Shown here one piece after another: positions 17,765-50,025 of a DNA stretch of 64,000 nucleotides. This DNA comes from Candidatus Kuenenbacteria bacterium. GTDB lineage: Bacteria; Patescibacteriota; Patescibacteriia; UBA2196; GWA2-42-15. Both the position numbers and the translations under genes were made by a program. The DNA is taken from positions 12,815 to 76,814 of the forward strand of contig JAAZOM010000006.1 of assembly GCA_012797775.1 (NCBI GenBank), in the 5' to 3' direction. The notes beneath the pieces were generated by a model. That model ran no database searches, had not been told where the DNA came from, and worked only from the letters and a program-made list of their open reading frames with translations. Within the stretch, counting starts at the first letter, position 1, and each line of letters opens with the position of its first letter.

Positions 17765-17930
17765 AAAAAATAGTTAGTTTGTAAAGAGGACCCACTAGGG
17801 TATTTAGTAATTTACTTTAGCATATTTTAATAATAATTCAAAATTTGAGTAAAATAAAAAACCGGACCTATCTTTTTGGTAGACAGAGTCCGGTTGTTTG
17901 GTTCGGGGGTTTTCGCGATGGTTCTAGGCG

Positions 17931-18422: not shown

Positions 18423-18477
18423 GACACATTTCTCCTTTTTGGTGATTGCAAATAAAATGAACTATTTTTATGTTAAA

Positions 18478-18506
18478 ATTATAGCATATTTATCTATTTT
18501 TGTCAA
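18478..18506 (-). promoter_or_regulatory. Consensus sigma70 promoter TTGACA-17-TGCTATAAT on the minus strand.
   Basis: The reverse complement reads TTGACAAAAATAGATAAATATGCTATAAT. It drives the 17931-18422 gene. The same extended -10 (ATATGCTATAAT) recurs at 33117-33145. Confidence 0.65.
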
Positions 18507-21317: not shown

Positions 21318-21381
21318 CTACTTTTCTACCACCCTACTTTCCTACCGACCTACATCCCTACTGTCCTACCTCCCTATCTTC
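21318..21381. repeat. Array of eight CTAC(N4) units with an exact 8-bp phase.
   Basis: CTAC (CTAT in the last unit) starts at 21318, 21326, 21334, 21342, 21350, 21358, 21366 and 21374. The array sits in the convergent gap between prs and the AMP phosphorylase gene and overlaps the latter's stop. Confidence 0.7.
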
Positions 21382-22865
21382 ACCACCTGATTTTTTCTAG
21401 CCGCGACCAGCCCTAGCTTCAGCCGGCCTTCATTTTCCGCATACAGAGTGAAAAGTTTTTGCCCTTTTGCTACCTTGTCATTAATTCTCACATGCATATG
21501 GATGCCCGCCAGTTTTTCTCTTGGCGCACCCAAATTTACGCAGATTTCTTCTATCGCCTTATTATTTACCGCCACTACCTTACCATCGCGCTTGGCATGC
21601 ATCTCATAATTTAGAGCCCCGAGCGCTACTGCATCAGCTTTGATTTTTTGATTGCCTCCCTGTGCTTTGATGATCTCCTGCATTTTTTTCCAAGCCGCCA
21701 GACTTTTTAGTTGTTGCTCGGCAATTTTTCTACCTTGGCCTTTTTTGCAAAATCCTTTCAACTCCAAAAGTTTGCCTGACAGATAAACACCTTTTTTCTC
21801 GAGATCGATCGGCCGGAGTTTGTGCTGTTGCAAGACCCGGAGCACATCTCTCGCTTCGAGTGCCGGACCCACACCCGCCCCCACCGGCTCTTTGGCCTCG
21901 AGCATTTCTACTTCTACTTTTATTTTAAATCTCTTCCCCACCGCCACAAATTTCTTGGCTATTTCTTTGGCGGTTTTCAGGCTGTGCACCTTGGCTGTTG
22001 GCCCATAGGGCAGGTCAATTACGAGGTAATCTACTCCCATCGCCACTTTTTTGGCGAGAATAGAAATAATCATTTTATCATATGGCTCCAAGGACAATGG
22101 CTTGGACACTTTGATAATAATGTCATCAGCTGGTGCCATACTGACCGCTCCGCCCCAGACCATACAGGCTTTGGTTTTCTCAATGACTTTTTTTATTTTT
22201 TCTACGCTCAGATCGACCGGCGCCAAGACTTCCATCGTATCCGCTGTGCCCGATGGCGAGGTGATCGCCCGTGAAGAAGTTTTTGGGATATAGAGCCCAA
22301 GCGAGGCGATAATCGGGATGACTATCATTGTGGTCCGATTGCCCGGTATGCCCCCAATAGAGTGTTTGTCCACCACCCTCTCTTTTAAATTCAATTTTTC
22401 TCCGCATTCAGCCATGGCCTTGGTCACATAGTAAAGCTCATCCAGGCTATATGGTTTTACAAAACTGGAAGCTACATAGTAGGTAGTTTCGATTTGTCCT
22501 AGTTTGCCCGTAGAAATATCCGAGATGATGGAATATATTTCTTCATAATTTAGTCTCTTGCCCAACATTTTTTTATTGATCGCCTTGATTGACTCTGGCC
22601 GGGAGTAGAGCATTATTTCCACGATATCTTCACTGTCAATTTGGTTTTTCTTCCAAATCTCCTCAAATAATCCCACTTCCCCATAATCAACCTTGCTGTC
22701 AGAAACATCCACGGTGGCAATCATGGTTTTGTTTTTGCTCCATTTTAGGTTTACCCGGTCGCCCGGCCGGATACCCTGATTTTCCGCTTCTTTTTCTTGG
22801 AGCACTACCGTTGGCTCACCACCGGATGAAAAGTCTATTTTTTTGCATTTGTAGAATAGGCGCAT
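21366..22865 (-). CDS. AMP phosphorylase (thymidine phosphorylase family with the AMPpase-type N-terminal extension).
   Basis: DKHSIGGIPGNRTTMIVIPI...TSSRAITSPSGTADTMEVLA are core thymidine-phosphorylase-family blocks. The N-terminus MRLFYKCKKIDFSSGGEPTVVLQEKEAE matches archaeal-type AMP phosphorylase. Start set at the internal Met at 22865. Confidence 0.75.
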   Translation of the reverse strand: MRLFYKCKKIDFSSGGEPTVVLQEKEAENQGIRPGDRVNLKWSKNKTMIATVDVSDSKVDYGEVGLFEEIWKKNQIDSEDIVEIMLYSRPESIKAINKKMLGKRLNYEEIYSIISDISTGKLGQIETTYYVASSFVKPYSLDELYYVTKAMAECGEKLNLKERVVDKHSIGGIPGNRTTMIVIPIIASLGLYIPKTSSRAITSPSGTADTMEVLAPVDLSVEKIKKVIEKTKACMVWGGAVSMAPADDIIIKVSKPLSLEPYDKMIISILAKKVAMGVDYLVIDLPYGPTAKVHSLKTAKEIAKKFVAVGKRFKIKVEVEMLEAKEPVGAGVGPALEARDVLRVLQQHKLRPIDLEKKGVYLSGKLLELKGFCKKGQGRKIAEQQLKSLAAWKKMQEIIKAQGGNQKIKADAVALGALNYEMHAKRDGKVVAVNNKAIEEICVNLGAPREKLAGIHMHVRINDKVAKGQKLFTLYAENEGRLKLGLVAARKNQVVKIGR

Positions 22866-23009
22866 AAAATTAGTATCAAGATATAAAGTATTTATTGTGT
22901 GTAATTTTATTTCTGTCTTTATTTTACCGCACCCCGTCTGAAAAATCAAAAAAGCTAAAAGGTTATATCTATAAGATTTTTTAATTGTAGCATGGCCCCT
23001 TGACGCGCC

Positions 23010-23038
23010 GGATAAAATATTTTATTCTTATTTCAAAG
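23010..23038 (+). promoter_or_regulatory. Possible sigma70 promoter TTGACG-17-TATTCT.
   Basis: 17-nt spacing. Lies about 100 nt upstream of the 23139 gene, which has the ribosome-binding site AAGGAGAAGG. Confidence 0.3.
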
Positions 23039-23138
23039 TTTTTTAAAAAGAAGAGACTAAACATAAAAAGGAGCAGGAAAATTTGTTGTTTTCAATTCAC
23101 GAGAAATTAAACCAGCCAAATGACAAGGAGAAGGTCTC

Positions 23139-23711
23139 ATGCAGACAACTTTAAATCTCCCGCTAATTCCCAGTGAAGTTTTTTTCACCAGGGGTTGGGG
23201 CAATGGCAGAAGCAAAGACATTTCACGGCGGCTGGCTCTTCGCGCTGCAGGCATCGGGGATTATAACATCGTGAATGTAGATGATGCTATTTTGCCCCCT
23301 AAATGTAAAGTTATCAGCCGATTTGCTGGCTTGTCAAAGTTAAGGCGCGGCGAATTTATTTTTTGTGTCTTATCTTGTTCTTCTGACAGCGAGCCCAACC
23401 GCCTAGTCTCGAGCGCTGTTGGTTGGGCCTGGACACCAGACACCGAGCAAGACGGCTTTGTCTCCAGGTGTGCTTTGAATGGCCAAACCGGCATAAAAAC
23501 CGGCGACGAGGCAGAAGACCTTGCCGCCACTATGCTGGCCAGTAATTTGGGGATAGAATTTGACCCCGAAAAAGCCTGGAGAGAAAGGGAGGAAACTTAT
23601 CAAGCGGCTGGTCAGGATATTCGCACCTCGCGCCTTTTCCAATCTCGGAGGTGCGGGCCAGATAAAAATATTTGGACTACCGTAGTGACAGCTGCGGTTT
23701 TCCTCATGTAA
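23139..23711 (+). CDS. Pyruvoyl-dependent arginine decarboxylase (PdaD) family protein.
   Basis: FFTRGWGNG...LALRAAGIGDYNIVNVDDAILPP parallels the archaeal PdaD N-terminal region (F.T.G.G...AL..AGIGN.N...SIMPP). The gene is GC-rich. Confidence 0.5.
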   Translation: MQTTLNLPLIPSEVFFTRGWGNGRSKDISRRLALRAAGIGDYNIVNVDDAILPPKCKVISRFAGLSKLRRGEFIFCVLSCSSDSEPNRLVSSAVGWAWTPDTEQDGFVSRCALNGQTGIKTGDEAEDLAATMLASNLGIEFDPEKAWREREETYQAAGQDIRTSRLFQSRRCGPDKNIWTTVVTAAVFLM

Positions 23712-23730
23712 TAAGTAATTATCCCAAACG

Positions 23731-23760
23731 AAAAACTCCACCCCTAGGGGCGGAGTTTTA
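23731..23760. terminator. Bidirectional terminator between convergent genes.
   Basis: aaaaactccacccc-ta-ggggcggagtttta. Confidence 0.6.
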
Positions 23761-23761
23761 T

Positions 23762-24691
23762 TTATATATTTTTTACAAACAGCTCGGCCACCGTCAGCAC
23801 TTCAAATTTTTTATCCTTCTTAAAATCCTTGGTCGAGACAATGGAATTTGTGGTAAATATTTTTTTAATATTTTTCTCGCGCCGCAGATTGGCTACCACT
23901 GGTCCAGTGGCTACCAAGTGTGTCAAAACTACATAAATATCTTTTGCTCCTTTGGCCTTCAGGGTTTTGGCCGCCTGGATCAGCGTCCCTCCGGTCTGGC
24001 TCAAGTCATCCACCATCACCACTGTTTTATTTTTCACCTCTCCTCGAAATTTGGTCACCTTCGCCTCATCCACTCGCGGCCGGATTTTTTCTATGGCGGC
24101 CAGATTTTTTATCCCTAATTCATCCGCAAAATTTTTACTGCGCTCGTCAGCGCCCAGATCCGGCGCTAAAACCACCACATCTTTCAGTTTTAATTTTTTG
24201 ATCTTTTCTATAAAAAGTCCCCGCGCTTTTAATTCGGTTATTTTCACTCGGAAATATTTGGCCACTTGGCGGCTGTGCAGATCTAGGGCCACGATTTCAT
24301 CTACTCCTGCATCTTCAATAATTTTTGCCATGAGCTTTGCACTCATCGCATCCCCAGAATATTTTATCCTGTCCTGCTTGCCATAACCAAAGTAGGGGAT
24401 AAGAGCCACTATTTTTTTCGCCCCGTTTTCCTTTAGCGTGTTGATGAGAATTATCAATTCCAACATATTTTCCGCTGGTGAAAAAGTCGAGCCCAAGACA
24501 TAAACTTTTTTGCCGCGGACATTTTCGTTTATATGTACCAAAATTTCCCCGTCTTTATAGTGGGATATCAGGCACCTGCCTTTTTTGATTTTTTTTGTCC
24601 GCCGGTTGGCGGATTGTAATATCTCTCCAACCAATTCTTCATTGCTATGGGTGGAGAAAAGAAAGTTAGACATTCTATTTGAGTTTAGCAC
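23762..24691 (-). CDS. prs: Ribose-phosphate pyrophosphokinase (PRPP synthetase). Copy 2, AT-rich.
   Basis: KDGEILVHINENVRGKKVYVLGSTFSPAENMLELIILINTLKENGAKKIVALIPYFGYGKQDR and VVLAPDLGA blocks. Confidence 0.8.
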   Translation of the reverse strand: MLNSNRMSNFLFSTHSNEELVGEILQSANRRTKKIKKGRCLISHYKDGEILVHINENVRGKKVYVLGSTFSPAENMLELIILINTLKENGAKKIVALIPYFGYGKQDRIKYSGDAMSAKLMAKIIEDAGVDEIVALDLHSRQVAKYFRVKITELKARGLFIEKIKKLKLKDVVVLAPDLGADERSKNFADELGIKNLAAIEKIRPRVDEAKVTKFRGEVKNKTVVMVDDLSQTGGTLIQAAKTLKAKGAKDIYVVLTHLVATGPVVANLRREKNIKKIFTTNSIVSTKDFKKDKKFEVLTVAELFVKNI

Positions 24692-26432
24692 TCCCTGGGA
24701 TCAGCGGATCATAGCCATGCTCTACTTCATCGCCATCTTTATAGCCATCACCATCAGTATCAGCTTTTGATGGATCAGTCTCCCAAATAAATATTTCTTC
24801 TTCATCAGTGATACCATCATTGTCTGTATCTAGATCGGTGCCCATTTCCAAGCCCATTCCATAGTCTTCCCCATTGTTCATCGAGCTTATGCCGTTGGGC
24901 GTGGCCACATTTTCTCCGGCCTTCAGATTGCCGCTGTCACCCAGCAACTGGAAGACCAAAGTATAATCATTTGGTTTTATGCTGGTATACAAATAGCCAC
25001 CATCTATTATTTTGTCTCCGCCCGGTACTTCACTCATATAGACTGTTGAGCCGGCACACTCTTCTATACTAGCCCTAAATCCCTTGGAACACAAAACTTT
25101 CATATTGCCGACACCCGTAGCCGCCGGTATCTCGTTTTTTGGATAGCCATTATTATCGACGAAATAAAGCTCTAGCGCCGTTTGTATCTGCTTTATTTCG
25201 CTCACCGTTTTGGCGTCACTATTTTTTGTCTGCGCTTTGTCCAACGCCCCAAACATACCTCCGCCAAAAGCCTCACTTAATAATTTTTCTAATTCCACTG
25301 GGTCTTTTGGTGACTCTATCTCCATTATCTGGTTAAAATTATCAAATGTTATGGTCATCGCCCCTCCCAAAGTCTGGTTGCCGTCTTTGTCTTTGCCGAT
25401 ATTATCAAAAGGGATTTCTATTTTTCTTATAAAATATTCTTTTTTATCTATCCAGATATCTAGGCTGAAATTTTTAACAAAGCGGTCAAAATTCTGCCAG
25501 TCTTCTTCTTTCATCTCGGCCATGTTTTTTTCTATCTCGGCTTTATTTTTAGAAACAGTTTTTATCTTTTCTATCATATCCAAAATACCCTGTTTATCCA
25601 GACCCAACTGATAGTGGTATGTTTTATTTTCTCCCAATGTTTCCACGCCGTAGTCATTTTTTAATATTATTATCTTGTCCGCATCTTGCTCTAGGATTTC
25701 CCCAATTTTCTTTGTATCCTCATCCTCTTGGCCGGCAAATTTATCCAAGACCGTCGTATTAATACTATATTTCACCCATTTATCTTTTATACTGCTAGTG
25801 TCAATAAACATAGCCAGCATAATTGGCAGTTGGTTTATTTTGAAATAAAGATTTTTCCCCAGAGTTACTACCTCGCCGGCTATATTATTAGTTGTACCGC
25901 CAATATCCAAACCAATATCTATTTTAAATTTTGAACGCAGATTATTTTCGTCGGTATTATCAGTGTATCCTTCTATTTCTGCGTACATCTTTTGTTTTTC
26001 CGTTCCAAGCAGCCCCCCAATTAAATTTAGCGTTGGGGTCGAAGTGGCTTGCTCCGCAGCTTGTTTTTCCTGAAATTCCAATTTCAAATCAAGCTTAAAA
26101 CTGGAAGCCTTTATTTGATTGGTGGCTTGGACGGATTTTTTTAGTACCTTGTCGGGTGTATTGGCGATATATTTGCTATAGCCCCAATATCCACCAAGTG
26201 CTACTCCAGCAAAAATTAAAACTCCAGCTACAATAGCCAGTATTTTTTTTATACCACCACTTGTTTGTGGCATCTCTGGATTCAAAAATTGAGAAGCATC
26301 CACGCTGGGTGGGTTATTCGGTACTGCGACGTTAGGGGTTGTCTCGTAAAGTGGGGTATGACAACTTTGGCAAACGTGGCTTTCCGGGCTATTTTCCAGC
26401 CCGCATTTTTGACAGCGCATATTGTTTTGCAT
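24675..26432 (-). CDS. Hypothetical membrane-anchored protein with an N-terminal zinc ribbon and a C-terminal Asp-rich calcium-binding-like repeat.
   Basis: CQKCGLEN...CQSCHT zinc ribbon, then a TM helix and a large extracytoplasmic region. C-terminal DTDNDGITDEEE...DTDGDGYKDGDE repeats resemble TSP3 or calcium-binding motifs. Confidence 0.5.
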   Translation of the reverse strand: MQNNMRCQKCGLENSPESHVCQSCHTPLYETTPNVAVPNNPPSVDASQFLNPEMPQTSGGIKKILAIVAGVLIFAGVALGGYWGYSKYIANTPDKVLKKSVQATNQIKASSFKLDLKLEFQEKQAAEQATSTPTLNLIGGLLGTEKQKMYAEIEGYTDNTDENNLRSKFKIDIGLDIGGTTNNIAGEVVTLGKNLYFKINQLPIMLAMFIDTSSIKDKWVKYSINTTVLDKFAGQEDEDTKKIGEILEQDADKIIILKNDYGVETLGENKTYHYQLGLDKQGILDMIEKIKTVSKNKAEIEKNMAEMKEEDWQNFDRFVKNFSLDIWIDKKEYFIRKIEIPFDNIGKDKDGNQTLGGAMTITFDNFNQIMEIESPKDPVELEKLLSEAFGGGMFGALDKAQTKNSDAKTVSEIKQIQTALELYFVDNNGYPKNEIPAATGVGNMKVLCSKGFRASIEECAGSTVYMSEVPGGDKIIDGGYLYTSIKPNDYTLVFQLLGDSGNLKAGENVATPNGISSMNNGEDYGMGLEMGTDLDTDNDGITDEEEIFIWETDPSKADTDGDGYKDGDEVEHGYDPLIPGSAKLK

Positions 26433-26440
26433 AATTTATT

Positions 26441-27709
26441 TTACTTTTTTAATTTCCAATATTCCAAGGCCCGCTTTAATTCCAGACGAGTTTCAGCATA
26501 AATTTTGGCTGGGATTTTTTTGACCACTGCTTCTACTGATTGTCGACAAGCTCTAGCTCCGGCGATTGAGCCATCCGGGTGGCCATGTAGTCCGCCCCCG
26601 AAATTAATCACCAGATCAGCCCCGAGTATTTTGACCAATTTTTCCACCAGTCCCGGATGCAATCCGCCCGAAGCAATCGGCAAAACCGGCTTGATCTTTT
26701 CCCAATTGGTTATTTCCTTATTCACTCCAAACCAATCTTCCTCCATTTCCAGATTTATTTCCGTCACTTCCTCGGCCGTGCCTTCCATTTTCCCGACCAC
26801 TGTACCCGTGTGCAGCTGATCAATGCCTGTCAATCTGGCCAGTTTGGCCAAAAGCAGCATGGTCATGCCGTGGCGTGAATTTTTGGTAAACATCGAATGC
26901 CCAGCTCGGTGGCCATGCAAAATCAAGCCCAGATTTTGTTCTCTCAAAAATTGGATATTATCCAACCCAGCCACCACGAGATCAATCATTGCTACCTTGC
27001 CACCGTATTTTTTGACTAGTTTAGCCCGTTTGAGCATCACATCAGCTGGTCCAGTCACATTAAAAACATAAACTTTTTTCTCGCCTGTCTCTTGCTCCAC
27101 TTGTTTTTTGAGTTTCATTACTTCTTTCACCCGTTCTTCAAATTTATTAAAAACCATATCTGTCAAATTCTCATCATCCTTGACTAGATCCACACCGTTT
27201 TTCCAGATTTGATAAGCGAGTCTAGCCTGCTCTTTGGCCGAGAGTCCCACCTTGGGTTTGATGATTGAGCCGATAATCGGCCGCTTGTAAATTTTCAGAT
27301 ATCTTCTCACTCCCTCGATACCAAAGGCCGGTCCCCTGAATGAATCCAGATATTTTTTGGGGAACTGAATATCCAAGAGGCGCAGATTGGCTATCACTTT
27401 CATACTAAAAACATTGCCAGCCAAAGCAGAGAGCAATTGCGTGATATTGCCGAGCTCAAACAATGCCAGTGGGTAGGCAATGTGCACTGTTTTTTTCTTG
27501 TTATCCAGTTTGAAAATCTTTGGCCCCAGCTTTTTTAGGGTTGCCTCTTTGAGCGTGCCGAGTTTTGTCCAGGTGCCGATGGATGATTCAGCGGCGATAT
27601 GCGCGGCCGCCTCGGCCAAGGGTAGTTTGCTTTCTAGATAATAGCTTACCACCAATTCTTCTTTGTAATTTGGCCGGTAGCCCAGCCGGAGATAAGGAGA
27701 TTTACTCAT
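26441..27709 (-). CDS. rbcL: RuBisCO large subunit, form II/III-like.
   Basis: GxxVKPKVGLSAKE catalytic-lysine block, KDDENL block and HxHRAGH block (LHGHRAGH). Start set at MSKSPYLRLGY (27709). The upstream part of the track ORF merely translates the GTAGG array. Confidence 0.85.
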   Translation of the reverse strand: MSKSPYLRLGYRPNYKEELVVSYYLESKLPLAEAAAHIAAESSIGTWTKLGTLKEATLKKLGPKIFKLDNKKKTVHIAYPLALFELGNITQLLSALAGNVFSMKVIANLRLLDIQFPKKYLDSFRGPAFGIEGVRRYLKIYKRPIIGSIIKPKVGLSAKEQARLAYQIWKNGVDLVKDDENLTDMVFNKFEERVKEVMKLKKQVEQETGEKKVYVFNVTGPADVMLKRAKLVKKYGGKVAMIDLVVAGLDNIQFLREQNLGLILHGHRAGHSMFTKNSRHGMTMLLLAKLARLTGIDQLHTGTVVGKMEGTAEEVTEINLEMEEDWFGVNKEITNWEKIKPVLPIASGGLHPGLVEKLVKILGADLVINFGGGLHGHPDGSIAGARACRQSVEAVVKKIPAKIYAETRLELKRALEYWKLKK

Positions 27710-27715
27710 AGGGTT

Positions 27716-27808
27716 GTAGGTTAGTAGGTATGTAGGGAGGTAGGTTAGTAGGATGTAGGTCAATAGTTAGCTTTTTCCTACGACGCTACTTTCCTACCAA
27801 CCTACTAC
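27716..27808. repeat. Inverted pair of 8-bp-phased arrays: GTAGG six times, then CCTAC four times.
   Basis: GTAGG starts at 27716, 27724, 27732, 27740, 27748 and 27755. CTAC starts at 27778, 27786, 27794 and 27802. The pair lies between rbcL and the four-helix-bundle gene. Confidence 0.65.
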
Positions 27809-28173
27809 TCTCTGTTATTAATCATTTTATTTAATATTTTCATTACTTCATTTAATATATTATCTGCTTTTATAAAGCTACTTTCTTTTGCTAGTTTTAA
27901 TCTTTTCGCTATTTCAATTTGTGTTTCCAGTTCCGCGCCAGAGCCGAGGGCGATAATTAAGAAATGCCGAAAATCTGTGACACTACCACGCCTTCTTCCC
28001 TCGGCGATATTGGATGGTATAGAAACAACGGTTTTCTTTGTGTGTGTTGTTAAACCATATAATTCTGATGGTGGGTATTCTCGAGTCAACTCATAAACTG
28101 CAATAACAAGTTCCATTGCTTTCTGCCAGACAATTAGATCTCTATAATCTCCCCATTTATAATTCCCTTCCAT
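27805..28173 (-). CDS. Four-helix-bundle protein of the 23S rRNA intervening-sequence protein family.
   Basis: About 120 aa, with ...ELTREYPPSELYGLTTHTKKTVVSIPSNIAEG...FRHFLIIALGSGAELETQIEIAKRL, typical of that family. Flanked on both sides by CCTAC arrays. Confidence 0.65.
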   Translation of the reverse strand: MEGNYKWGDYRDLIVWQKAMELVIAVYELTREYPPSELYGLTTHTKKTVVSIPSNIAEGRRRGSVTDFRHFLIIALGSGAELETQIEIAKRLKLAKESSFIKADNILNEVMKILNKMINNRE

Positions 28174-28193
28174 AGTATTTAATAATTAATTTC

Positions 28194-28229
28194 CTACTTC
28201 CCTACCCACCTACACCCCTACTTCCCTAG
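28194..28229. repeat. Five CTAC(N4) units with an exact 8-bp phase.
   Basis: CTAC or CTAG starts at 28194, 28202, 28210, 28218 and 28226. Confidence 0.65.
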
Positions 28230-29159
28230 TATCCACGGATAATATTTCTTCACATATTTATCTACCTCATTCGGTTTGATCACCCCAAATTCGGTGATAT
28301 AGCCGGTGATCAGCTGCGCTGGTATTTTGTCAAAAGCAAAATTGATAATCTTTAGTTGTGCTGGGCTGTTCTTCCAAATTTCGGTTTTGGCGCGCAATTC
28401 TATCCCCATTTTTTTATTGGTTTTTTTCATGAGTGTGCCAGCCAGATAGACCGGGATCTTGGAAGTGTAGGCCGCGAGCGCAATGCCAAAACTACCCACT
28501 TTATTCAAAGCGGAATTGTCCGCCAAGATCACGTCAAAACCGATTATCACTTTGTCTATTTTTACTTTGTCGCCGGAAAAATTGGAAATCAGAAATTCGG
28601 CGGCTGAATCCACCACCATGGTATTATCAATTTTTAGTCTAGCCAGATCTTCAGAGGTTTTTCGTCCCTGCATGAGTGGCCGAGTTTCATCATTATAAAC
28701 GTGTATTTTCTTTTTCTGTTCTTTGGCCGCGCCCAAAATATTGATGACTGTTTGCGCATGGCAGTGCGTGAAAATATTTTCTTTGTTTTTTATCGTTCTA
28801 CTACCATAGAGAGAAATCCGCTGGCCATTTTTATGGAGTAATTCTGAAAAATCGGTTGCCTGTTTTTTGGCCAGTTTTTTCAATTCTACCACTTCACTAG
28901 CCCTGCTTTTGATCCCATGTTTTTCTGCCAGACGCAGATGCAAGTATTTAAAAGCATTAATCGTTAGTGGTTCATCTGGTCGGGCTTTGGCCAAGAGCTC
29001 GCCAGCGCGCTTGGCTTCATTCAGGAAAGTCACCGGATTTCTCATCTTCAGGATTGATAAATAGGCGACCCATGCTTCAATGCTCGCCCGGCAGATATTG
29101 CTGGCGCCCTGTATTTTTATAGAACGGATATCTTTTATTGTTTGGTTTAGACTAGCCAT
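28218..29159 (-). CDS. Ribose-1,5-bisphosphate isomerase (eIF-2B alpha/beta/delta-like, e2b2).
   Basis: IQGASNICRASIEAW, THCHAQTV and VIIGFDVILADNSALNKVGSFGIALAAYTSKIPVYLAG match the eIF2B-like MtnA/R15P isomerase fold. Sits next to RuBisCO. Confidence 0.75.
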   Translation of the reverse strand: MASLNQTIKDIRSIKIQGASNICRASIEAWVAYLSILKMRNPVTFLNEAKRAGELLAKARPDEPLTINAFKYLHLRLAEKHGIKSRASEVVELKKLAKKQATDFSELLHKNGQRISLYGSRTIKNKENIFTHCHAQTVINILGAAKEQKKKIHVYNDETRPLMQGRKTSEDLARLKIDNTMVVDSAAEFLISNFSGDKVKIDKVIIGFDVILADNSALNKVGSFGIALAAYTSKIPVYLAGTLMKKTNKKMGIELRAKTEIWKNSPAQLKIINFAFDKIPAQLITGYITEFGVIKPNEVDKYVKKYYPWILGK

Positions 29160-30489: not shown

Positions 30490-30515
30490 TTACCTATTAC
30501 ACATTACTCATTACT
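30490..30515. repeat. Four ATTACNN heptamers with a 7-bp phase (reverse complement GTAAT).
   Basis: TTAC starts at 30490, 30497, 30504 and 30511. Confidence 0.55.
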
Positions 30516-31902
30516 AAAGTACCACTCGTTCTCCCTTTTCTGGCATCACAATCTGCCCAATCTGATTTTTATCTAGCTTCTCCGCCAAGACACTCATCGC
30601 TCCTGCTTCACCATGGACTAGAAATAATTTTTTCAGTTTGCCAACGCCCCCAATAAATTTAACCAGATCATACTGATCCGCGTGGGCGGACAGAGAATTT
30701 AAAACCACTATTTTCGCCTTGACTGCCAGATTTTCATTCAAGATATTTACCTTTTCTGCTCCCTCGAGTAGTTTTCTACCCAAGGTATTCTCGGCCATGA
30801 AACCAACTATCACTACGGTATTTCTCGGGTCACTGATGCTATTTTTCAGATGGTGCCGGATGCGTCCGAACTCACACATACCCGAAGCTGAGATAATTAT
30901 GCATGGCTGTTTTGTATTATTCAATTTTTTTGATTCTTCTGGCGTTTCTACAAAACGCAGTGTGGTAAAAATAAAGGGATCTTTGCCTTGCTCCAAAAAA
31001 GTTTTCTGTGTTTCTTCGTCCAGTAGATCAGGATAATCAGAAAAAGCCTCACTCACTCTTTCTGTTAGTGGACTGTCCAAATAGACAAATAAAGGCGGTA
31101 TGGCTTTTTGATTGATCAATTCATGGATAATATACAAGAGTTCCTGCGCGCGCTCTAAGGCAAAAGAGGGGATGATCACCTTGCCGCCTCGGGCATAGGT
31201 CTCATTGATTGCTTTGGCCAGGTCGAGATATGAAGTGGACAGGCTGTCATGGACCCGGTCGCCATAAGTACTTTCCGAGATCAGATAATCAACCGCCCGG
31301 ATTTGCTCCGGGTCTTTGAGAATCGGTAAAAATTTGCGACCCAAATCTCCGGTGAATCCGAGGCGCACTATTTGTCCATTTTCCGTTAATTCCAAAGTCA
31401 ATAAAGCTGAGCCAAGTACATGCCCAGCATCGCGGAAATAAGCTTTGACCCCCGGCAATGGTTCAAATTCTTCATGATAATTCACGCCCACAAATTGCTT
31501 CATGGCTGGAGCCACATCATCAGGTGTATAGATTGGTTCTAGCGGTGTTGTCTCTGGTAATTGTTTGCGATTCAGATATTCCACATCATAAACCTGCACT
31601 CGGGCACTATCCTCGAGCATCAATTCCGTGATCTGCTCAGTAGCTTTGGTGCAATAAATTTTGCCCTTGAAACCCTGCTTGACCAGATTGGGAATATTGC
31701 CCGAGTGGTCAATATGGGCATGGCTCAAGATCATGGCATCAATACTCTTGGGGTCAAAAGGAAATTCTCTGTTTATACTTTCCATATCCCGCCTTTGTCC
31801 TTGCCAAAAGCCGCACTCCAAAAGGAGTTTTTTATTATTTATAGTGATCACATATTGTGAGCCAGTGACAGTTTTGCAGGCCCCGAAAAATTCTATTTTC
31901 AT
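30514..31902 (-). CDS. Metallo-beta-lactamase / beta-CASP family ribonuclease (RNase J / CPSF-like).
   Basis: HAHIDHSG motif within an MBL fold, plus a beta-CASP region and a C-terminal HGE block. Confidence 0.7.
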   Translation of the reverse strand: MKIEFFGACKTVTGSQYVITINNKKLLLECGFWQGQRRDMESINREFPFDPKSIDAMILSHAHIDHSGNIPNLVKQGFKGKIYCTKATEQITELMLEDSARVQVYDVEYLNRKQLPETTPLEPIYTPDDVAPAMKQFVGVNYHEEFEPLPGVKAYFRDAGHVLGSALLTLELTENGQIVRLGFTGDLGRKFLPILKDPEQIRAVDYLISESTYGDRVHDSLSTSYLDLAKAINETYARGGKVIIPSFALERAQELLYIIHELINQKAIPPLFVYLDSPLTERVSEAFSDYPDLLDEETQKTFLEQGKDPFIFTTLRFVETPEESKKLNNTKQPCIIISASGMCEFGRIRHHLKNSISDPRNTVVIVGFMAENTLGRKLLEGAEKVNILNENLAVKAKIVVLNSLSAHADQYDLVKFIGGVGKLKKLFLVHGEAGAMSVLAEKLDKNQIGQIVMPEKGERVVL

Positions 31903-31945: not shown

Positions 31946-32109
31946 ACTTAAAAGAAACTTTTTGCCCATCACCTCTTTGTAATTATAATTTTATCCCATA
32001 TCACCGCCCTTTGACAAATTTTCAAAAATAGTTTATTTTAAAAAGCACTATCTCAGACACAAAAGAACGGTAAACAAAAAAGAAAAAACGGAACAGAAAG
32101 GAGCAGAAA

Positions 32110-32271
32110 TTGGAGGAGTGTATTTTTTGTAAAAAAAGAAGGCTCATTGGCAATCCGCACTTCATCCACTGGGAACATCTGCCCAGCCCGTACTCAATTC
32201 GGGGCCAGGAACTGCGGACGGTCAATGTCCAGATGGTAGTCTGTGAGGAGTGCAAGGGCAAACAATCGTGA
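32110..32271 (+). CDS. Small C4 zinc-ribbon protein, paralog a (53 aa, TTG start).
   Basis: AAGGAG ribosome-binding site 6 nt before the TTG. CIFC...HWEHLPSP...CEEC. The gene is GC-rich. Confidence 0.4.
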   Translation: MEECIFCKKRRLIGNPHFIHWEHLPSPYSIRGQELRTVNVQMVVCEECKGKQS

Positions 32272-32284
32272 GGAGGTGTGTGGT

Positions 32285-32521
32285 ATGATAAGGAACCGAA
32301 AAGCAGCAGCAGTAGGTAAATGCCGGGTTTGCGGAAGGCATCGCTGGGAGGGTGCTTGGCATAGTCGTGGCTCTGAACCCCAGTCTCTTCGGGCTATTTT
32401 AAACAATCCCTTGGGACACAGGGTGAAGCCGACCATTTGCAGTAACTGTCAGACTGCCAAAGATCAGCTCACTACCCGGTCAGTACCAGCCAATCTTCGC
32501 CGAGTTAGGAGGCAAGAGTGA
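32285..32521 (+). CDS. Small C4 zinc-ribbon protein, paralog b (78 aa).
   Basis: GAGGAGG ribosome-binding site before ATG 32285. CRVC...W..AWHSRGSEP...CSNC. Confidence 0.45.
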   Translation: MIRNRKAAAVGKCRVCGRHRWEGAWHSRGSEPQSLRAILNNPLGHRVKPTICSNCQTAKDQLTTRSVPANLRRVRRQE

Positions 32522-32679
32522 TAAGATACCCCCAATGTCCCATCTGTAACTTAGTGGAGGTAGAGAATGGCCGGTGGCAGCCACTCTATACTTTCTCTAA
32601 GGAGGAACAGCGAAAAATAGTTCCTCATCTCCACCGGGTGGACGGCTGCCATTGCCAAAGGGGAGGAGAACGCGGATAA
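32518..32679 (+). CDS. Small zinc-ribbon protein, paralog c (53 aa, GTG start overlapping the upstream stop).
   Basis: GTGA start-stop overlap with paralog b. CPIC...RWQPLYT...CHC. Confidence 0.35.
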   Translation: MIRYPQCPICNLVEVENGRWQPLYTFSKEEQRKIVPHLHRVDGCHCQRGGERG

Positions 32680-32738
32680 ATAAACTTCCGCGGGCCCTTC
32701 CTAGCCATACGAGGCGCAACTGTTTTAAAGGTTGTGCC

Positions 32739-32768
32739 TTATTTTTTACCAAAACAAAATCCACTCGC
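32739..32768 (-). terminator. Intrinsic terminator on the minus strand.
   Basis: ccactc-gccatg-gagtgg hairpin followed on the minus strand by a T-run. Lies downstream of the 32883-33059 gene. Confidence 0.5.
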
Positions 32769-32882
32769 CATGGAGTGGATTAAAATATGATCTTCTATTT
32801 TCAGTTGGCAAACCGCTTTTACCAGCTAAAAATAAAAGGGGGAGAGCAGTAAGCCACCACACCACACCCCCCGATTTTGCTT

Positions 32883-33059
32883 TCAGTCGGCCATAAAGTC
32901 AATGGCCCAAAGAAAGGCTTCGCCCAGTCCCTCCCAGCGCGCCTGCGCCAGAAAGAACAGGGTGACGAGCCCCAGTCCGAAGCCGAACAGCTCAGCCCGG
33001 TGCTCTTTTAGGGTTTCGAGGAGGTCCTCGACCCCATTAAAAATAAAATCAATCAGCAT
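32883..33059 (-). CDS. Small hydrophobic protein, 58 aa.
   Basis: GGAG ribosome-binding site about 7 nt before the ATG. Driven by the consensus promoter at 33117-33145. Sequence MLIDFIFNGVEDLLETLKEHRAELFGFGLGLVTLFFLAQARWEGLGEAFLWAIDFMAD. GC-rich. Confidence 0.45.
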   Translation of the reverse strand: MLIDFIFNGVEDLLETLKEHRAELFGFGLGLVTLFFLAQARWEGLGEAFLWAIDFMAD

Positions 33060-33116
33060 ATTTTTTCTCCTTTCTGCTGATTTTTATTTTTTTGGTTTTT
33101 AATGTTCAATTAATAT

Positions 33117-33145
33117 ATTATAGCATATATTAATACTTTTGTCAA
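33117..33145 (-). promoter_or_regulatory. Consensus sigma70 promoter TTGACA-17-TGCTATAAT on the minus strand.
   Basis: The reverse complement reads TTGACAAAAGTATTAATATATGCTATAAT. It is near-identical to the promoter at 18478-18506. Confidence 0.65.
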
Positions 33146-33203
33146 TAGACAAAAGTAAACAAAAACCGCTTAAAATTTGTCTAAACGGTTTTTATTAAAA
33201 AAA

Positions 33204-33533
33204 TTAAAGTAACTTTTCCAATTCTGCTTTCAGGATTTCTTTGGGTCTAAAACCAACAATTTCATAAATCAGCTTGCCAGCTTTGAAAACCTTGAGGTTG
33301 GGGATACTCATGACTAGATATTTCTCTGATAATTCATAATTATCTTCCTCGTTGGTATCCAGCTTGGTAATTTTTATTTTACCTTCCATTTCTTCAGCTA
33401 GCTGATCAAGAACTGGAGCCATCATCTGGCACGGCCCACACCATGGCGCATAAAAGTCCACCAAGACCGGCAACTCCGATTCTAGGACTTCTTTTTGAAA
33501 ATTATCTTTGGTTAGTTCCATTGCTTTTAACAT
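33204..33533 (-). CDS. trxA: Thioredoxin.
   Basis: WCGPC active site in the FYAPWCGPCQMMAP context. Confidence 0.92.
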   Translation of the reverse strand: MLKAMELTKDNFQKEVLESELPVLVDFYAPWCGPCQMMAPVLDQLAEEMEGKIKITKLDTNEEDNYELSEKYLVMSIPNLKVFKAGKLIYEIVGFRPKEILKAELEKLL

Positions 33534-39860: not shown

Positions 39861-40115
39861 TTATTGCCCTATGCGATTTCTATTCATCTGGCAGCCACCG
39901 CCACACTGGCAGGTTTTGCCTTCTTTTCCGCAATTGCCCCCGCAAGCAGAGTTTGCTCCGCAACCACAGGTAGCAGCTTGCACCACATTAGCATTATTGG
40001 CGCCGACTTGGACGCCCGCTGGGGCTGAATTTTGGCTGGCCGCGCTGGCAACGCTAAAGATCACCACTGCCATTACCAGAGCTATAAAGCCTCCCAAAAA
40101 CCAAAGTTTATTCAT
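39861..40115 (-). CDS. Secreted Cys-rich peptide (84 aa precursor).
   Basis: Signal peptide followed by TCGCGANSACGGNCGKEGKTCQCGGGC. A terminator lies downstream. Confidence 0.5.
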   Translation of the reverse strand: MNKLWFLGGFIALVMAVVIFSVASAASQNSAPAGVQVGANNANVVQAATCGCGANSACGGNCGKEGKTCQCGGGCQMNRNRIGQ

Positions 40116-40182
40116 ATGCTAGGTTTATTAGTTTTTAATTGGGCCCTCTATACACTAATACGCACTTCGCCTAGCTTTTATT

Positions 40183-40917
40183 TCAATGTTGGCAATTGCC
40201 ATCGCAATTTTTGGGTTTTAGGCAGCCGCCACAGCCACACCAAGGGCGGATTTCCTCGGCCGTAAACTGGTTTTCTAGGGTTATATCGCCGATAATTTTT
40301 ATACGTTCGCCAATTTTTAAAATTGCATCGTTTTGTACATTGGCGGTGAGTGCGTTGATCTGCCAGTGATCTCCACTCAAATCCTGCAAGATAAAGCCAT
40401 TTTTGGTGATCGCCACTATTTCTCCGGCCAAAAGACCCTGGTCAGTCTTTTGCCACAGTCGGTGCTCATAATTCAGCTGAGCATAGCCAGGCAATTTTTC
40501 GTTAAAAATATTATTTAATTTGTAGCCAAGCCCAAAATTATAAATCAAAATCCCCAAAATTACCGTTGCCAACAAATAAAAAATTATCAGTCTGGCCAGG
40601 GGCAGGCGATAGCCAAATTTGGTATTTTTATAATTATAATAACCCAACCCAACAAAAACCACTAAAGCTGCCAGCCAGAAATATGGCAAGGTTAGGAGTA
40701 AGATTTTTCCAAAGTTCATTTCAATCCGTTGGTAGATGTCCCATTCCTGATTGGCCAAAATAAATATTGATATCCCGACCGCGAGCGCACCAAAAATTAT
40801 TGACAACCCAAACAAAAACCAAAGCAATAAATTTTTTGCCCGAAGATTTGATTTCGGCGTTGGTTTTAGCCCTTGATCTTTTATAGTTTCTAATATTTTA
40901 TCACTTATTTGGCTCAT
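40183..40917 (-). CDS. Membrane protein, putative anti-sigma factor, with a Cys-rich C-terminus.
   Basis: Overlaps the ECF sigma gene by 17 nt. Has about four TM helices. The C-terminus WCGCGGCLKPKNCDGNCQH shares the CGCGG..C.GNC motif with the 39861-40115 peptide. Confidence 0.5.
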   Translation of the reverse strand: MSQISDKILETIKDQGLKPTPKSNLRAKNLLLWFLFGLSIIFGALAVGISIFILANQEWDIYQRIEMNFGKILLLTLPYFWLAALVVFVGLGYYNYKNTKFGYRLPLARLIIFYLLATVILGILIYNFGLGYKLNNIFNEKLPGYAQLNYEHRLWQKTDQGLLAGEIVAITKNGFILQDLSGDHWQINALTANVQNDAILKIGERIKIIGDITLENQFTAEEIRPWCGCGGCLKPKNCDGNCQH

Positions 40918-41491
40918 AGTATTCAGGATTAATTTTAATAAACTCTTCTTTAAATTTTCTTCTAGCCCTGGCGATCAGCGTCCCGACGGTACTAACCGGC
41001 AAACGCAGAATGTCGGAAATTTCTCGATAGTCCAGCTCTTCCACAAAGCGCAAAATAAAAATTTCTCGATATTTTTCTCCCAGCCGGCTGATTATTTTTT
41101 CCAACATCGCCCGGTCATATTTGGTATTTATTTCTTTATTCAGATCAGTATCAGCCGTTATCTTTTGCCATTCCTCGTCATCGAGTATTATCTGTGGCCG
41201 CGCTTGTCTTTTGCGCAGTTCACTCACTGTTTCATTGTGGGCGATCCGGTAAGCCCAAGAAGAAAATTTTAGCTTATCATCAAAATCATTAAGGTTATAA
41301 AAAATTTTTATAAAAACCTCCTGCAAAACATCTTCGGCGTCCTCTTGACCGAGACCTGATATTCTCCGAACATAAACCAACAGCTGTCTTTCATAGCGTT
41401 TTATTAGACAAGCAAAATAATCGGCGCTCTTGAGAGACAGAGCGACGAGTTCATTATCCGAGAGCTGTATACAGCTTTCCTGAGTGACCAT
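40901..41491 (-). CDS. ECF-type RNA polymerase sigma-70 factor.
   Basis: Region 2 (EDVLQEVFIKIFYNLNDF...SWAYRIAHNE) and region 4 (DYREISDILRLPVSTVGTLIARARRKFKE). Confidence 0.8.
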   Translation of the reverse strand: MVTQESCIQLSDNELVALSLKSADYFACLIKRYERQLLVYVRRISGLGQEDAEDVLQEVFIKIFYNLNDFDDKLKFSSWAYRIAHNETVSELRKRQARPQIILDDEEWQKITADTDLNKEINTKYDRAMLEKIISRLGEKYREIFILRFVEELDYREISDILRLPVSTVGTLIARARRKFKEEFIKINPEYYEPNK

Positions 41492-49962: not shown

Positions 49963-50025
49963 ATAAAAGTTTGATTAATTATTGGAATTATAATACCATA
50001 AAGATATTATAAGTCAAGCTTTTAT

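What the first reader, a model, noticed from the sequence alone, without database searches (positions are those of the whole stretch)
32097..33150. Tandem triplet of paralogous small zinc-ribbon ORFs, convergent to a strongly promoted 58-aa hydrophobic peptide
Three consecutive ORFs of 53, 78 and 53 aa lie at 32110-32271, 32285-32521 and 32518-32679. Each has a good Shine-Dalgarno site, and the last pair is translationally coupled through GTGA. Each encodes C-x2-C ... W ... (H)xxxP ... C-x(1-2)-C, so they appear to be diverged tandem duplicates of one small zinc-ribbon protein. On the opposite strand, a 58-aa hydrophobic peptide (32883-33059) sits behind a perfect TTGACA-17-TGCTATAAT promoter and a GGAG ribosome-binding site. 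The whole block is GC-rich relative to its neighbours. A small membrane peptide plus small basic zinc-binding partners is reminiscent of type I toxin-antitoxin loci or other small-protein conflict systems, but nothing matches a described family.
Basis: partly seen in the sequence, partly recalled or inferred. Interest (0 to 1): 0.6.

Follow-up and report, generated by a model that had tools for sequence, protein, structure and literature searches.

The report
Small zinc-finger protein operon in Kuenenbacteria
Three tiny cysteine-rich (zinc-finger type) protein genes sit in a row in an uncultured Kuenenbacteria genome; at least two are real, conserved, fast-evolving genes from an undescribed, very narrow family, and the neighbouring 58-residue gene looks like an unrelated orphan small gene, not a toxin partner.

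Summary

- **ORF1** is the ortholog of a small Cys4 protein encoded divergently upstream of a beta-CASP ribonuclease gene in four other Kuenenbacteria-type genomes.
- **ORF1 and ORF2** recur as a tandem pair in a second genome (E = 2e-15 and 9e-21). Synonymous sites are saturated and pN is about 0.4, so both are real genes.
- **ORF3** has only intrinsic support: the rare Cys-pair layout, a strong SD and the start/stop overlap.
- **Paralogy** is marginal for ORF1/ORF2 (profile-profile E = 0.002) and not shown for ORF3.
- **No known family or fold** matches in Pfam, NCBIfam, PHROGs, PADLOC or PDB.
- **The proteins evolve about ten times faster** than the adjacent beta-CASP gene, but remain constrained (omega about 0.27).
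- **The 58-aa ORF** is an orphan. Its codon usage is gene-like and its mRNA is strongly structured. The peptide is acidic with one borderline hydrophobic segment.
- **Nothing supports a type I toxin-antitoxin.** The two transcripts do not overlap and show no antisense complementarity, and the convergent partner differs between genomes.

Verdict: a new, lineage-restricted family of one-domain zinc-finger micro-proteins. Function is unknown; a nucleic-acid-binding role linked to the beta-CASP gene is my inference. Modest interest.

The parts
31988..32017 (-). Promoter-like site (TTGTCA-18-TAAAAT) for the divergent beta-CASP ribonuclease gene (30514-31902, -). Its -35 overlaps the operon's -35 block.
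   Evidence: 10/12 match. The block 32008-32022 is 100% conserved in L003, L004 and L005, and the block CTTTGACAA.TTTT is invariant across all five loci.
32011..32039 (+). Promoter of the zinc-finger operon (TTGACA-17-TATTTT), followed by an A-rich, unstructured leader of about 65 nt.
   Evidence: 10/12. The -35 and -10 are aligned and conserved in five loci. The leader windows give z of about +1.8.
32110..32271 (+). ORF1, 53 aa, TTG start with AAAGGAG 6 nt upstream. Cys4 micro-protein, ortholog of the family found in L003, L004, L005 and L043.
   Evidence: BLASTP E = 8e-5, 8e-6 and 2e-15 to the syntenic ORFs. HMM score 83.6 bits. pN 0.40 against pS 0.96. AF2 pLDDT 80. TTG start and SD conserved in L043.
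32285..32521 (+). ORF2, 78 aa, ATG start. The ORF1 stop codon is embedded in the ORF2 SD (TGAGGAGG). Very basic (net +13) Cys4 micro-protein.
   Evidence: Annotated as NMC51261.1. Syntenic homolog in L043 right after the ORF1 homolog, E = 9e-21, 42% identity, no gaps. pN 0.38 against pS 0.78, and 18 of 27 identical residues use different codons. Charge.
32518..32679 (+). ORF3, 53 aa, GTG start overlapping the ORF2 stop (GTGA), AGGAGG 5 nt upstream. Cys pairs C-x2-C and C-x-C, 34 residues apart. Probable third member, supported by intrinsic evidence only.
   Evidence: SD -10.2 kcal/mol, top 0.8%. The Cys-pair layout occurs in about 1% of ORFs. hhalign against the ORF2 pair gives E = 0.015. No ortholog is available because the L043 contig ends.
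32711..32740 (+). Intrinsic terminator of the operon (11-bp stem plus T-run), conserved in relatives.
   Evidence: 87-88% identical to the sequence immediately after the single zinc-finger gene in L003, L004 and L005.
32758..32781 (-). Intrinsic terminator of the 58-aa gene's transcript (9-bp stem plus T-run).
32782..32882 (-). Structured 3' UTR of the 58-aa gene (two long hairpins).
   Evidence: With the terminator, z = -5.7 on the minus strand against -2.8 on the plus strand.
32883..33059 (-). 58-aa orphan ORF (NMC51262.1). Acidic (net -7), with one borderline hydrophobic segment at residues 22-40.
   Evidence: No homolog. Codon-usage score 0.238, the 45th percentile of true genes, with 1.4% of decoys at or above it; GC1/2/3 is 0.68/0.32/0.67. 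CDS fold z = -4.2 on its own strand against -1.4 antisense.
33060..33116 (-). 5' UTR of the 58-aa gene with AAGGAG. The UTR pairs with codons 2-4, leaving the SD and AUG in the hairpin loop.
   Evidence: z = -2.9 for 33092-33028.
33117..33145 (-). Perfect extended-10 sigma-70 promoter, TTGACA-17-(TG)TATAAT.
   Evidence: One of 2 in the window against 0.02 expected.

Best explanation
The plus-strand block is a small operon: promoter 32011-32039, terminator 32711-32740, and three one-domain Cys4 zinc-finger micro-proteins. They belong to an undescribed family restricted to a narrow clade of Candidatus Kuenenbacteria.

**Shown**
- ORF1 and ORF2 are real, conserved genes under purifying selection.
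- The family gene always lies divergently next to a beta-CASP/RMMBL ribonuclease gene, with a conserved back-to-back promoter block.
- Relatives carry either one 82-aa gene or, as here and in L043, a short ORF1 followed by ORF2.
- The proteins evolve about ten times faster than the neighbouring gene.

**Inferred**
- Each protein folds around one Zn(Cys)4 site. The first Cys pair sits on a beta-hairpin and the second at the N-terminus of a helix.
- ORF3 is a third, translationally coupled member.
- ORF2 and ORF3 arose by local duplication and divergence.
- The proteins, above all the very basic ORF2 (net +13), bind nucleic acid. They would act as small regulators or cofactors tied to the beta-CASP gene, either at the shared promoter or on its RNA substrates.

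The 58-aa ORF is a separate, convergent, monocistronic gene with its own strong promoter and terminator. It is most likely an orphan small membrane-associated protein made from a very stable, structured mRNA. It is not a functional partner in a toxin-antitoxin sense.
For: **Conservation and synteny**
- ORF1-like genes lie upstream of the beta-CASP gene in L003, L004, L005 and L043.
- An ORF2 homolog lies directly after the ORF1 homolog in L043.
- The exhaustive profile search of 1.84 billion proteins found only these loci plus one spurious PAN-domain hit.

**Coding signature**
- pS is 0.78-0.96 against pN 0.38-0.40. Between 11/23 and 18/27 identical residues use different codons, and differences are in excess at third positions.
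- omega is about 0.27 when the beta-CASP dS of 2.06 is used as the yardstick; beta-CASP dN is 0.057.
- Between the window and L043, beta-CASP is 91% identical, against 46% and 42% for the zinc-finger proteins.

**Operon signals**
- Conserved -35/-10 elements and a conserved terminator.
- Strong SDs and the GTGA overlap.

**ORF3**
- The two-Cys-pair layout is rare (1.07%), and its pair spacing of 34 residues falls within the family range of 34-39.

**Fold**
- AF2 model of ORF1: pLDDT 80.3, pTM 0.58, with helix 46-52 starting at the second Cys pair.
- The ORF2 model has the same order of elements.

**The 58-aa ORF**
- Gene-like codon usage and periodicity.
- Perfect promoter, SD and terminator.
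- The only other perfect promoter in the window also drives a GC-rich membrane-protein gene with the same SD context. It is therefore a house strong promoter.
Against: - There is no functional evidence at all. No known family or fold matches, so nucleic-acid binding and the link to beta-CASP rest on charge, position and analogy.
- Adjacency to beta-CASP in five closely related genomes could simply be inherited synteny. GW2011_GWA2_42_15-type genomes keep the beta-CASP gene without the family.
- ORF3 has no ortholog, scores like a decoy in codon usage (as do ORF1 and ORF2), and shows no significant similarity to the others.
- Zinc binding is predicted, not shown. Some archaeal C(P)XCG proteins do not bind zinc (PMC11241148, abstract seen).
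- The 58-aa ORF has no homolog anywhere, and its RNA is unusually structured.
Confidence: 0.7

Rival explanations
1. The zinc-finger genes and the convergent small hydrophobic peptide form one functional module: a toxin-antitoxin-like or other small-protein conflict system.
For: - In all four loci where the downstream side is visible, the zinc-finger gene is followed, terminator to terminator, by a convergent, SD-preceded small hydrophobic ORF with its own TTGACA promoter. This holds even though the genes further out differ (thioredoxin, RRM protein, kinase-like).
- The zinc-finger proteins evolve fast.
- The 58-aa mRNA is highly structured, as many type I toxin mRNAs are (z = -8.6).
Against: - The convergent ORFs are three unrelated types: the 58-aa acidic peptide, 34-42-aa lipoprotein-like ORFs, and a 70-aa TM protein.
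- The transcripts do not overlap and show no excess complementarity. Direct repeats between the two units are only at chance level.
- In a type I system the antitoxin is an RNA, not a protein.
- The peptide has net charge -7 and only a borderline TM segment.
- There are no PADLOC, Pfam or NCBIfam toxin or antitoxin hits.
- Small hypothetical membrane ORFs are common in CPR genomes (general knowledge), so the recurrence may be coincidence.
Confidence: 0.08
2. The minus-strand unit (33110 to 32755) is a structured non-coding or dual-function small RNA, and the 58-codon ORF is fortuitous or secondary.
For: - Fold z = -8.6 for the whole transcript.
- The signal is strand-specific: CDS -4.2 against -1.4 antisense, and 3' UTR -5.7 against -2.8.
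- GC-rich island in an AT-rich intergenic setting, behind a consensus promoter typical of abundant RNAs.
- No protein homolog among 5.8 billion sequences.
Against: - Codon usage and GC1/2/3 periodicity are typical of this genome's genes; only 1.4% of decoys score as high.
- AAGGAG lies 7 nt from an ATG.
- No Rfam family matches, even at E up to 10.
- Much of the z-score comes from the terminator and UTR hairpins.
- No related sequence exists on which to test covariation.
Confidence: 0.15
3. Only ORF1 and ORF2 are genes. ORF3 is a chance ORF within the operon's 3' UTR, or a decaying duplicate.
For: - ORF3 has no relative at any level.
- No significant similarity to ORF1, ORF2 or the family.
- It was not called by NCBI.
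- Its second 'knuckle' is C-x-C.
Against: - The two-Cys-pair layout is rare (about 1% of ORFs), and ORF3 has the family's spacing.
- Its SD is in the top 0.8% of sites, and its start overlaps the ORF2 stop.
- C-x-C knuckles do occur in bona fide members (L003, L004).
- There is a marginal colinear profile match to ORF2 (E = 0.015).
Confidence: 0.25

Closest known systems
One-domain zinc-finger micro-proteins of haloarchaea (C(P)XCG proteins of Haloferax volcanii; Brz of Halobacterium salinarum)
   Same: - Proteins of about 50-80 aa that consist of little more than two Cys pairs.
- Several such genes per genome.
- Brz is encoded directly next to the gene it regulates (PMC2253796, PMC6562870 and PMC11241148, abstracts seen).
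- Some motifs here read CxxCG or CPxC.
   Different: - No sequence homology: the HVO_0649 model scores 13 bits against a cutoff of 70.
- Bacterial (CPR) rather than archaeal.
- Arranged as a tandem operon.
- Function untested.
Type I toxin-antitoxin loci (for example hok/Sok, TisB/IstR, Fst/RNAII)
   Same: A small ORF with a hydrophobic segment, a strong promoter and a highly structured mRNA.
   Different: - No antisense RNA gene or complementarity.
- The neighbours are proteins.
- The peptide is acidic rather than cationic.
- The transcripts are separated by two terminators.
Structural Zn(Cys)4 site of the Fur/PerR C-terminal domain (best, non-significant, fold match)
   Same: Two CxxC pairs hold together a small alpha/beta unit. 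These are the top Foldseek hits (2fe3, 2rgv).
   Different: E is about 1.1 and TM about 0.4, so the match is not significant. There is no DNA-binding winged helix and no sequence similarity.
Classic zinc ribbons (TFIIS/RPA12 C-terminal ribbons, Pfam zinc_ribbon families)
   Same: Four Cys in two pairs about 35 residues apart, with the first pair on a beta-hairpin.
   Different: The model places the second pair at the N-terminus of a helix, which is treble-clef-like, rather than on a second hairpin. No Pfam zinc-ribbon model matches. RPA12 gives E = 6.9.

Membership tests
Type I toxin-antitoxin | Antitoxin is an antisense RNA complementary to the toxin mRNA (overlapping or nearby) | tested here: not met
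   The convergent units end at separate terminators 17 nt apart. The best inter-transcript duplex is no better than shuffles (z = +0.5). Only chance-level 10-11-nt repeats were found.
Type I toxin-antitoxin | Toxin is a small (under 60 aa) hydrophobic, usually cationic, membrane-inserting peptide | tested here: inconclusive
   58 aa with one 19-residue segment at Kyte-Doolittle 1.63, which is borderline. Net charge is -7.
Type I toxin-antitoxin | Toxicity on expression, neutralised by the cognate antitoxin | not testable with these tools
   Needs an expression experiment.
Known anti-phage defence or conflict systems (PADLOC-DB) | A significant match of any component to a defence-system model | tested here: not met
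   Only a 13-bit partial match of ORF1 to a 1,100-position REase model. Nothing for ORF2, ORF3, the 58-aa ORF, P0003 or P0004.
Haloarchaeal C(P)XCG one-domain zinc-finger micro-proteins | Under about 70-80 aa with at least two C(P)XCG-type motifs | tested here: met
   53-82 aa with two Cys pairs. CxxCG appears in ORF2, L005 and L043, and CPxC in L003-L005 and ORF3. This is membership of a descriptive class only.
Haloarchaeal C(P)XCG one-domain zinc-finger micro-proteins | Sequence homology to a curated family (for example NF041911 HVO_0649) | tested here: not met
   13.1 and 9.3 bits against a cutoff of 70.
Zinc-binding Cys4 finger (generic) | Four conserved Cys ligands brought together in the fold | tested here: inconclusive
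   The four Cys are invariant in all five family members and in both ORF2 homologs. The AF2 model is confident (pLDDT 80), but metal binding cannot be computed here.
Classic zinc ribbon | Both Cys pairs on beta-hairpin knuckles, and a match to zinc-ribbon profiles | tested here: not met
   The second Cys pair (C45, C48) sits at the start of helix 46-52. No Pfam or NCBIfam zinc-ribbon hit.
Csf1 (type IV Cas8-like) N-terminal zinc finger | Score above the TIGR03114 cutoff | tested here: not met
   15.3 bits against a cutoff of 140.
Any Rfam RNA family (structured-RNA alternative) | A covariance-model match at or near the gathering score | tested here: not met
   Nothing at gathering score in the region. 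The best sub-threshold hit is 25 bits against a gathering score of 56, and it lies on the thioredoxin terminator.

The most novel reading that the evidence does not exclude
The zinc-finger micro-protein gene(s) and the ever-present but sequence-variable convergent small membrane or secreted peptide form a previously unrecognised, fast-evolving two-part module of CPR bacteria. It could be, for example, a peptide toxin or signal paired with small zinc-finger immunity or regulator proteins, possibly acting through the adjacent beta-CASP ribonuclease.
Probability: 0.07. Interest if true: 0.65.

Novelty: new member of a known kind. Interest (0 to 1): 0.3.

Why it matters
Small proteins are systematically under-annotated: two of these three ORFs were not called in the public record. 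CPR bacteria are full of unexplained small genes.

This work provides a verified case of a lineage-restricted, rapidly evolving zinc-finger micro-protein family with a fixed genomic partner, a beta-CASP ribonuclease gene that shares its promoter region. That gives a concrete, testable candidate for small-protein regulation of RNA metabolism in an uncultured, reduced-genome lineage.

It also shows that the 'toxin-antitoxin' reading of 'small hydrophobic ORF next to small basic proteins' is not warranted here.

Tried and rejected
- **Structured RNA for the triplet.** Plus-strand fold z = -1.2, with no Rfam hit. Rejected for ORF1 and ORF2 on the conservation evidence.
- **Word-indexed homology searches.** ORF2 and the 58-aa ORF found only themselves. 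The family profile found only P0003 and P0004.
- **Exhaustive profile search.** It added P0005, which is genuine, and P0006, an 811-aa PAN-domain protein rejected as a low-complexity artefact.
- **Concatenated four-ORF query** against viral and metagenome contigs: nothing.
- **Independent assemblies L001 and L002** are identical to the window, so they give no polymorphism data.
- **Codon-usage scoring.** Informative for the 58-aa ORF but not for the Cys/Arg-rich ORFs, because proven genes ORF1 and ORF2 score like decoys.
- **AF2 of ORF2 alone** gave low confidence (pLDDT 54), so it was not used for fold search.
- **MqsA/YgiT-type zinc finger.** I recalled a resemblance from memory, but no Pfam or NCBIfam hit supports it.
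- **Inverted repeat I1** (32264-32284 and 32856-32876, 76%) and the 11-nt perfect match I21 were judged chance-level. They are also of the wrong polarity for pairing between the two transcripts.
- **Phage or plasmid origin of the GC-rich block:** no DNA match.
- **Similarity of the two perfect promoters** (18478-18506 and 33117-33145): too short and too constrained by the consensus to claim duplication.
Full report
**1. What is in the sequence.** The window comes from a Candidatus Kuenenbacteria (CPR/Patescibacteria) metagenome bin. ORF2 and the 58-aa ORF are the hypothetical proteins NMC51261.1 and NMC51262.1 (GYA54_00840 and GYA54_00845). ORF1 and ORF3 were not called.

The block occupies a 1.3-kb gap between a 462-aa beta-CASP/RMMBL metallo-beta-lactamase-fold ribonuclease gene (30514-31902, minus strand) and a thioredoxin gene (33204-33533, minus strand).

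- Three consecutive plus-strand ORFs of 53, 78 and 53 aa.
- Strong SD sites, with duplex energies of -8.2, -12.8 and -10.2 kcal/mol. Across 5,889 start-like triplets, only 2.6% reach -8 or better and 0.8% reach -10 or better.
- The GTGA stop/start overlap of ORF2 and ORF3.
- A plus-strand terminator at 32711-32740.
- On the other strand, a 58-aa ORF with AAGGAG, a 12/12 extended-10 consensus promoter (33145..33117) and its own terminator (32781..32758).

A perfect TTGACA-N16-18-TATAAT occurs only twice in the 64 kb, against 0.02 expected.

The block is GC-rich (50-56% against 42%), but genes at 17.8-18.4 kb and 33.7-34.4 kb are just as GC-rich.

**2. ORF1 and ORF2 are real genes.** I used the beta-CASP protein as an anchor to fetch syntenic loci.
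- Three related genomes (L003=L025, L004=L026, L005; beta-CASP 85-87% identical) carry a single Cys-rich ORF of about 80 aa (82 aa in L003 and L004) in ORF1's position and orientation.
- ORF1 matches the L003 and L004 proteins at E = 8e-5 and 8e-6 and scores 83.6 bits on the family HMM.
- An exhaustive HMMER search of 1.84 billion representative proteins found one more genuine member, P0005 (E = 1.4e-7). It also found a spurious PAN-domain protein.

The contig of P0005 (L043, 1.5 kb) again starts with the beta-CASP gene on the opposite strand. It then has an ORF1 homolog with the same AAAGGAG-6 nt-TTG start and the same end just after the second CxxC (E = 2e-15, 45% identity). Eight bases later an ORF2 homolog begins and runs off the contig end (E = 9e-21, 42% identity over 65 ungapped residues).

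| Pair | pS | pN | Identical residues using different codons |
|---|---|---|---|
| ORF1, window vs L043 | 0.96 | 0.40 | 11 of 23 |
| ORF2, window vs L043 | 0.78 | 0.38 | 18 of 27 |

Differences are in excess at third positions. The 82-aa genes compared among themselves give pN/pS of 0.37-0.48.

The adjacent beta-CASP gene gives dS = 2.06 and dN = 0.057 for the same genome pair. Using that as the neutral yardstick, the zinc-finger proteins (dN 0.53-0.57) have omega of about 0.27, against about 0.03 for beta-CASP. They are constrained but evolve about ten times faster: beta-CASP is 91% identical where ORF1 and ORF2 are 46% and 42%.

The plus-strand RNA is not unusually structured (z = -1.2; per-ORF z values of -0.5, +1.8 and -1.3). 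No Rfam family matches.

**3. Architecture of the locus across genomes.** Three landmarks are conserved:
- The operon's promoter. The block CTTTGACAA.TTTT is invariant in the five-locus alignment, and a -10 element is aligned.
- On the other strand, a TTGTCA-18-TAAAAT match for the beta-CASP gene that overlaps the same block.
- The terminator hairpin, which is 87-88% identical.

Between promoter and terminator, relatives have one 82-aa gene. That gene is the zinc finger plus a 22-residue tail, SDRPVDPMW.ESR..VIC.SIFIG. The window and L043 instead have a short ORF1 without that tail followed by ORF2, and in the window also ORF3. GW2011_GWA2_42_15-type genomes (L006, L027, L030, L038) keep the beta-CASP gene but lack the family.

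**4. Paralogy.** BLASTP finds no alignment between ORF1 and either ORF2 or ORF3. Smith-Waterman shuffle tests give p = 0.13, 0.84 and 0.14.

Profiles do better. The ORF1 family against the ORF2 pair gives hhalign E = 0.0022 over 52 colinear columns that include both Cys pairs. The ORF2 HMM's best non-self hit among 8,298 ORFs is the L005 family member (E = 0.054, full length), and ORF1 also appears (E = 1.8). I read this as probable but unproven distant paralogy of ORF1 and ORF2.

ORF3 shows only E = 0.015 against ORF2 (38 columns) and 0.098 against the ORF1 family.

**5. ORF3.** No ortholog can be examined. The intrinsic evidence favours a gene:
- The two-Cys-pair layout occurs in 1.07% of ORFs of 45-95 aa, and 5 of those 19 are this family or the triplet.
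- Its pair spacing of 34 residues lies within the family's range of 34-39.
- Its SD is in the top 0.8% of sites, and its start is coupled to the ORF2 stop.
- C-x-C knuckles occur in genuine members (L003, L004).

I put the chance that it is a real gene at about 0.7.

**6. Fold and known families.**
- Pfam, PHROGs, NCBIfam and PADLOC give nothing significant for any member. The best hits are generic zinc-finger matches far below cutoff: Csf1 at 15 bits against 140, and HVO_0649 at 13 bits against 70.
- PDB sequence searches are negative.
- AF2 on ORF1 with the four-sequence alignment gives pLDDT 80.3 and pTM 0.58. The first Cys pair flanks an N-terminal beta element, there is a short central helix, and the second pair sits at the start of helix 46-52. 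That is treble-clef-like rather than a two-hairpin ribbon.
- The low-confidence ORF2 model has the same order of elements.
- Foldseek against PDB and BFVD finds nothing significant. The top hits are the Zn(Cys)4 domain of PerR/Fur at E about 1.1 and TM about 0.4.

The closest described kind is the one-domain zinc-finger micro-proteins studied in haloarchaea, including Brz, which is encoded next to the gene it regulates (PMC2253796, PMC6562870, PMC11241148). That is a shared class, not homology.

**7. The 58-aa ORF.** It has no homolog in 5.8 billion proteins, in the metagenome scan, or in any fetched locus.

Evidence that it codes for protein:
- Codon usage is typical of this genome's genes: 45th percentile of true-gene windows, with only 1.4% of wrong-frame decoys as high. 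GC1/2/3 is 0.68/0.32/0.67.
- It has a good SD and an ATG start.

Evidence for unusual RNA structure:
- Whole unit z = -8.6.
- CDS alone z = -4.2 on its own strand against -1.4 antisense.
- 3' UTR z = -5.7.
- A 5' hairpin leaves the SD and AUG in its loop.

The product is acidic (net -7) with one borderline hydrophobic segment (Kyte-Doolittle 1.63, residues 22-40).

The only other perfect promoter in the window (18478-18506) drives another GC-rich gene, for a protein of about 163 aa with an N-terminal membrane anchor, and has the same AATCA.CA.AAAGGAGAAA SD context. The promoter is therefore a strong house type, not something specific to a toxin.

I conclude it is most likely an orphan small-protein gene with a stable mRNA. 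A non-coding or dual-function RNA cannot be excluded (about 0.15).

**8. Test of the toxin-antitoxin or conflict idea.**

Against:
- The two units end at separate terminators 17 nt apart.
- Inter-transcript complementarity is no better than shuffles (z = +0.5).
- Repeats between the two units are at chance level, or of the wrong polarity for pairing.
- There is no defence-system match.
- The peptide is acidic.

For:
- In every locus where it can be seen, the zinc-finger gene is followed by a convergent, SD-preceded small hydrophobic ORF with its own TTGACA promoter. These are the 58-aa ORF here, lipoprotein-like ORFs of 42 and 34 aa in L003 and L005 (homologous to each other, E about 1e-4), and a 70-aa TM protein in L004. 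The outer flanks differ between loci.

These are three unrelated sequences from only four closely related genomes. I treat this as a lead (probability about 0.07-0.08), not as support.

**9. Most likely mechanism.**

Shown: a conserved operon of fast-evolving Cys4 micro-proteins, fixed next to a beta-CASP ribonuclease gene through a shared divergent promoter block.

Inferred: each protein is a single Zn(Cys)4 finger. ORF2 (net +13) in particular binds nucleic acid. The proteins act as small regulators or cofactors connected to the beta-CASP gene, at the shared promoter or on RNA.

The functional link could equally be inherited synteny.

This is a new, very narrow family within a known kind, one-domain zinc-finger micro-proteins. 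Interest is modest (0.3). It is a useful verified small-protein family for CPR biology, but it is not surprising and has no functional handle yet.

Noticed in passing
window 18422-17930 (-), promoter 18478-18506 (-): This is the only other perfect TTGACA-17-(TG)TATAAT promoter in the window. It drives a GC-rich (0.56) gene for a protein of about 163 aa with an N-terminal membrane anchor (MKKMYIIGALLVLAGVFFLL...). It has no Pfam family and shares the SD context of the 58-aa gene. The mechanical ORF list reports a different, overlapping frame (17827-18429), which is probably wrong.
   Followed up: partly
L003 4352-4480 (+); L005 219-323 (+): Tiny lipoprotein-like ORFs of 42 and 34 aa lie convergent to the zinc-finger gene. 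They have a lipobox (LGC/GGC), a mature part of only 17-23 residues, and a conserved C..PPQK.P motif. They are homologous to each other (E about 1e-4), and their 5' UTRs share a conserved ..CCAAGGTGG.. motif that appears to form a hairpin.
   Followed up: partly
window about 39864-40118 (-) (= L001 2945-3199): An 84-aa called gene with a signal peptide and a Cys/Gly-rich tail (..ATCGCGANSACGGNCGKEGKTCQCGGGCQ..). It lies directly downstream of an ECF sigma factor (40901-41491) and a 244-aa putative anti-sigma gene. It has no Pfam family.
   Followed up: no
window 30514-31902 (-) and loci L007-L022, L031-L037: Outside the Kuenenbacteria, the nearest relatives of the 462-aa beta-CASP/RMMBL protein are Ignavibacteria and Bacteroidota proteins at 45-48% identity. 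None of those loci has the zinc-finger gene upstream.
   Followed up: partly
window 21366-29159: A cluster of form III-type RuBisCO (26441-27763), an IF-2B-like ribose-1,5-bisphosphate isomerase (28218-29159), an AMP-phosphorylase-like gene (21366-22949) and PRPP synthase (23762-24691). From general knowledge this is the nucleotide-salvage pathway already described in CPR genomes. Two PF05635 (23S rRNA intervening-sequence) proteins lie nearby.
   Followed up: no
window 49789-49974 (-): A 61-aa Cys4 ORF ([13 protein letters not shown]...KKVCTRCLK...). It is one of the few other two-Cys-pair ORFs in the window and looks like a zinc-binding ribosomal protein (probably bL28).
   Followed up: no
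window 32264-32284 and 32856-32876: A 21-nt imperfect inverted repeat (76%). It means the 3' UTR of the 58-aa transcript carries a same-sense, G-rich near-copy of the ORF2 SD region (AAUCGGGGGGUGUGGUGUGGU against AAUCGUGAGGAGGUGUGUGGU). I judged it chance-level.
   Followed up: partly
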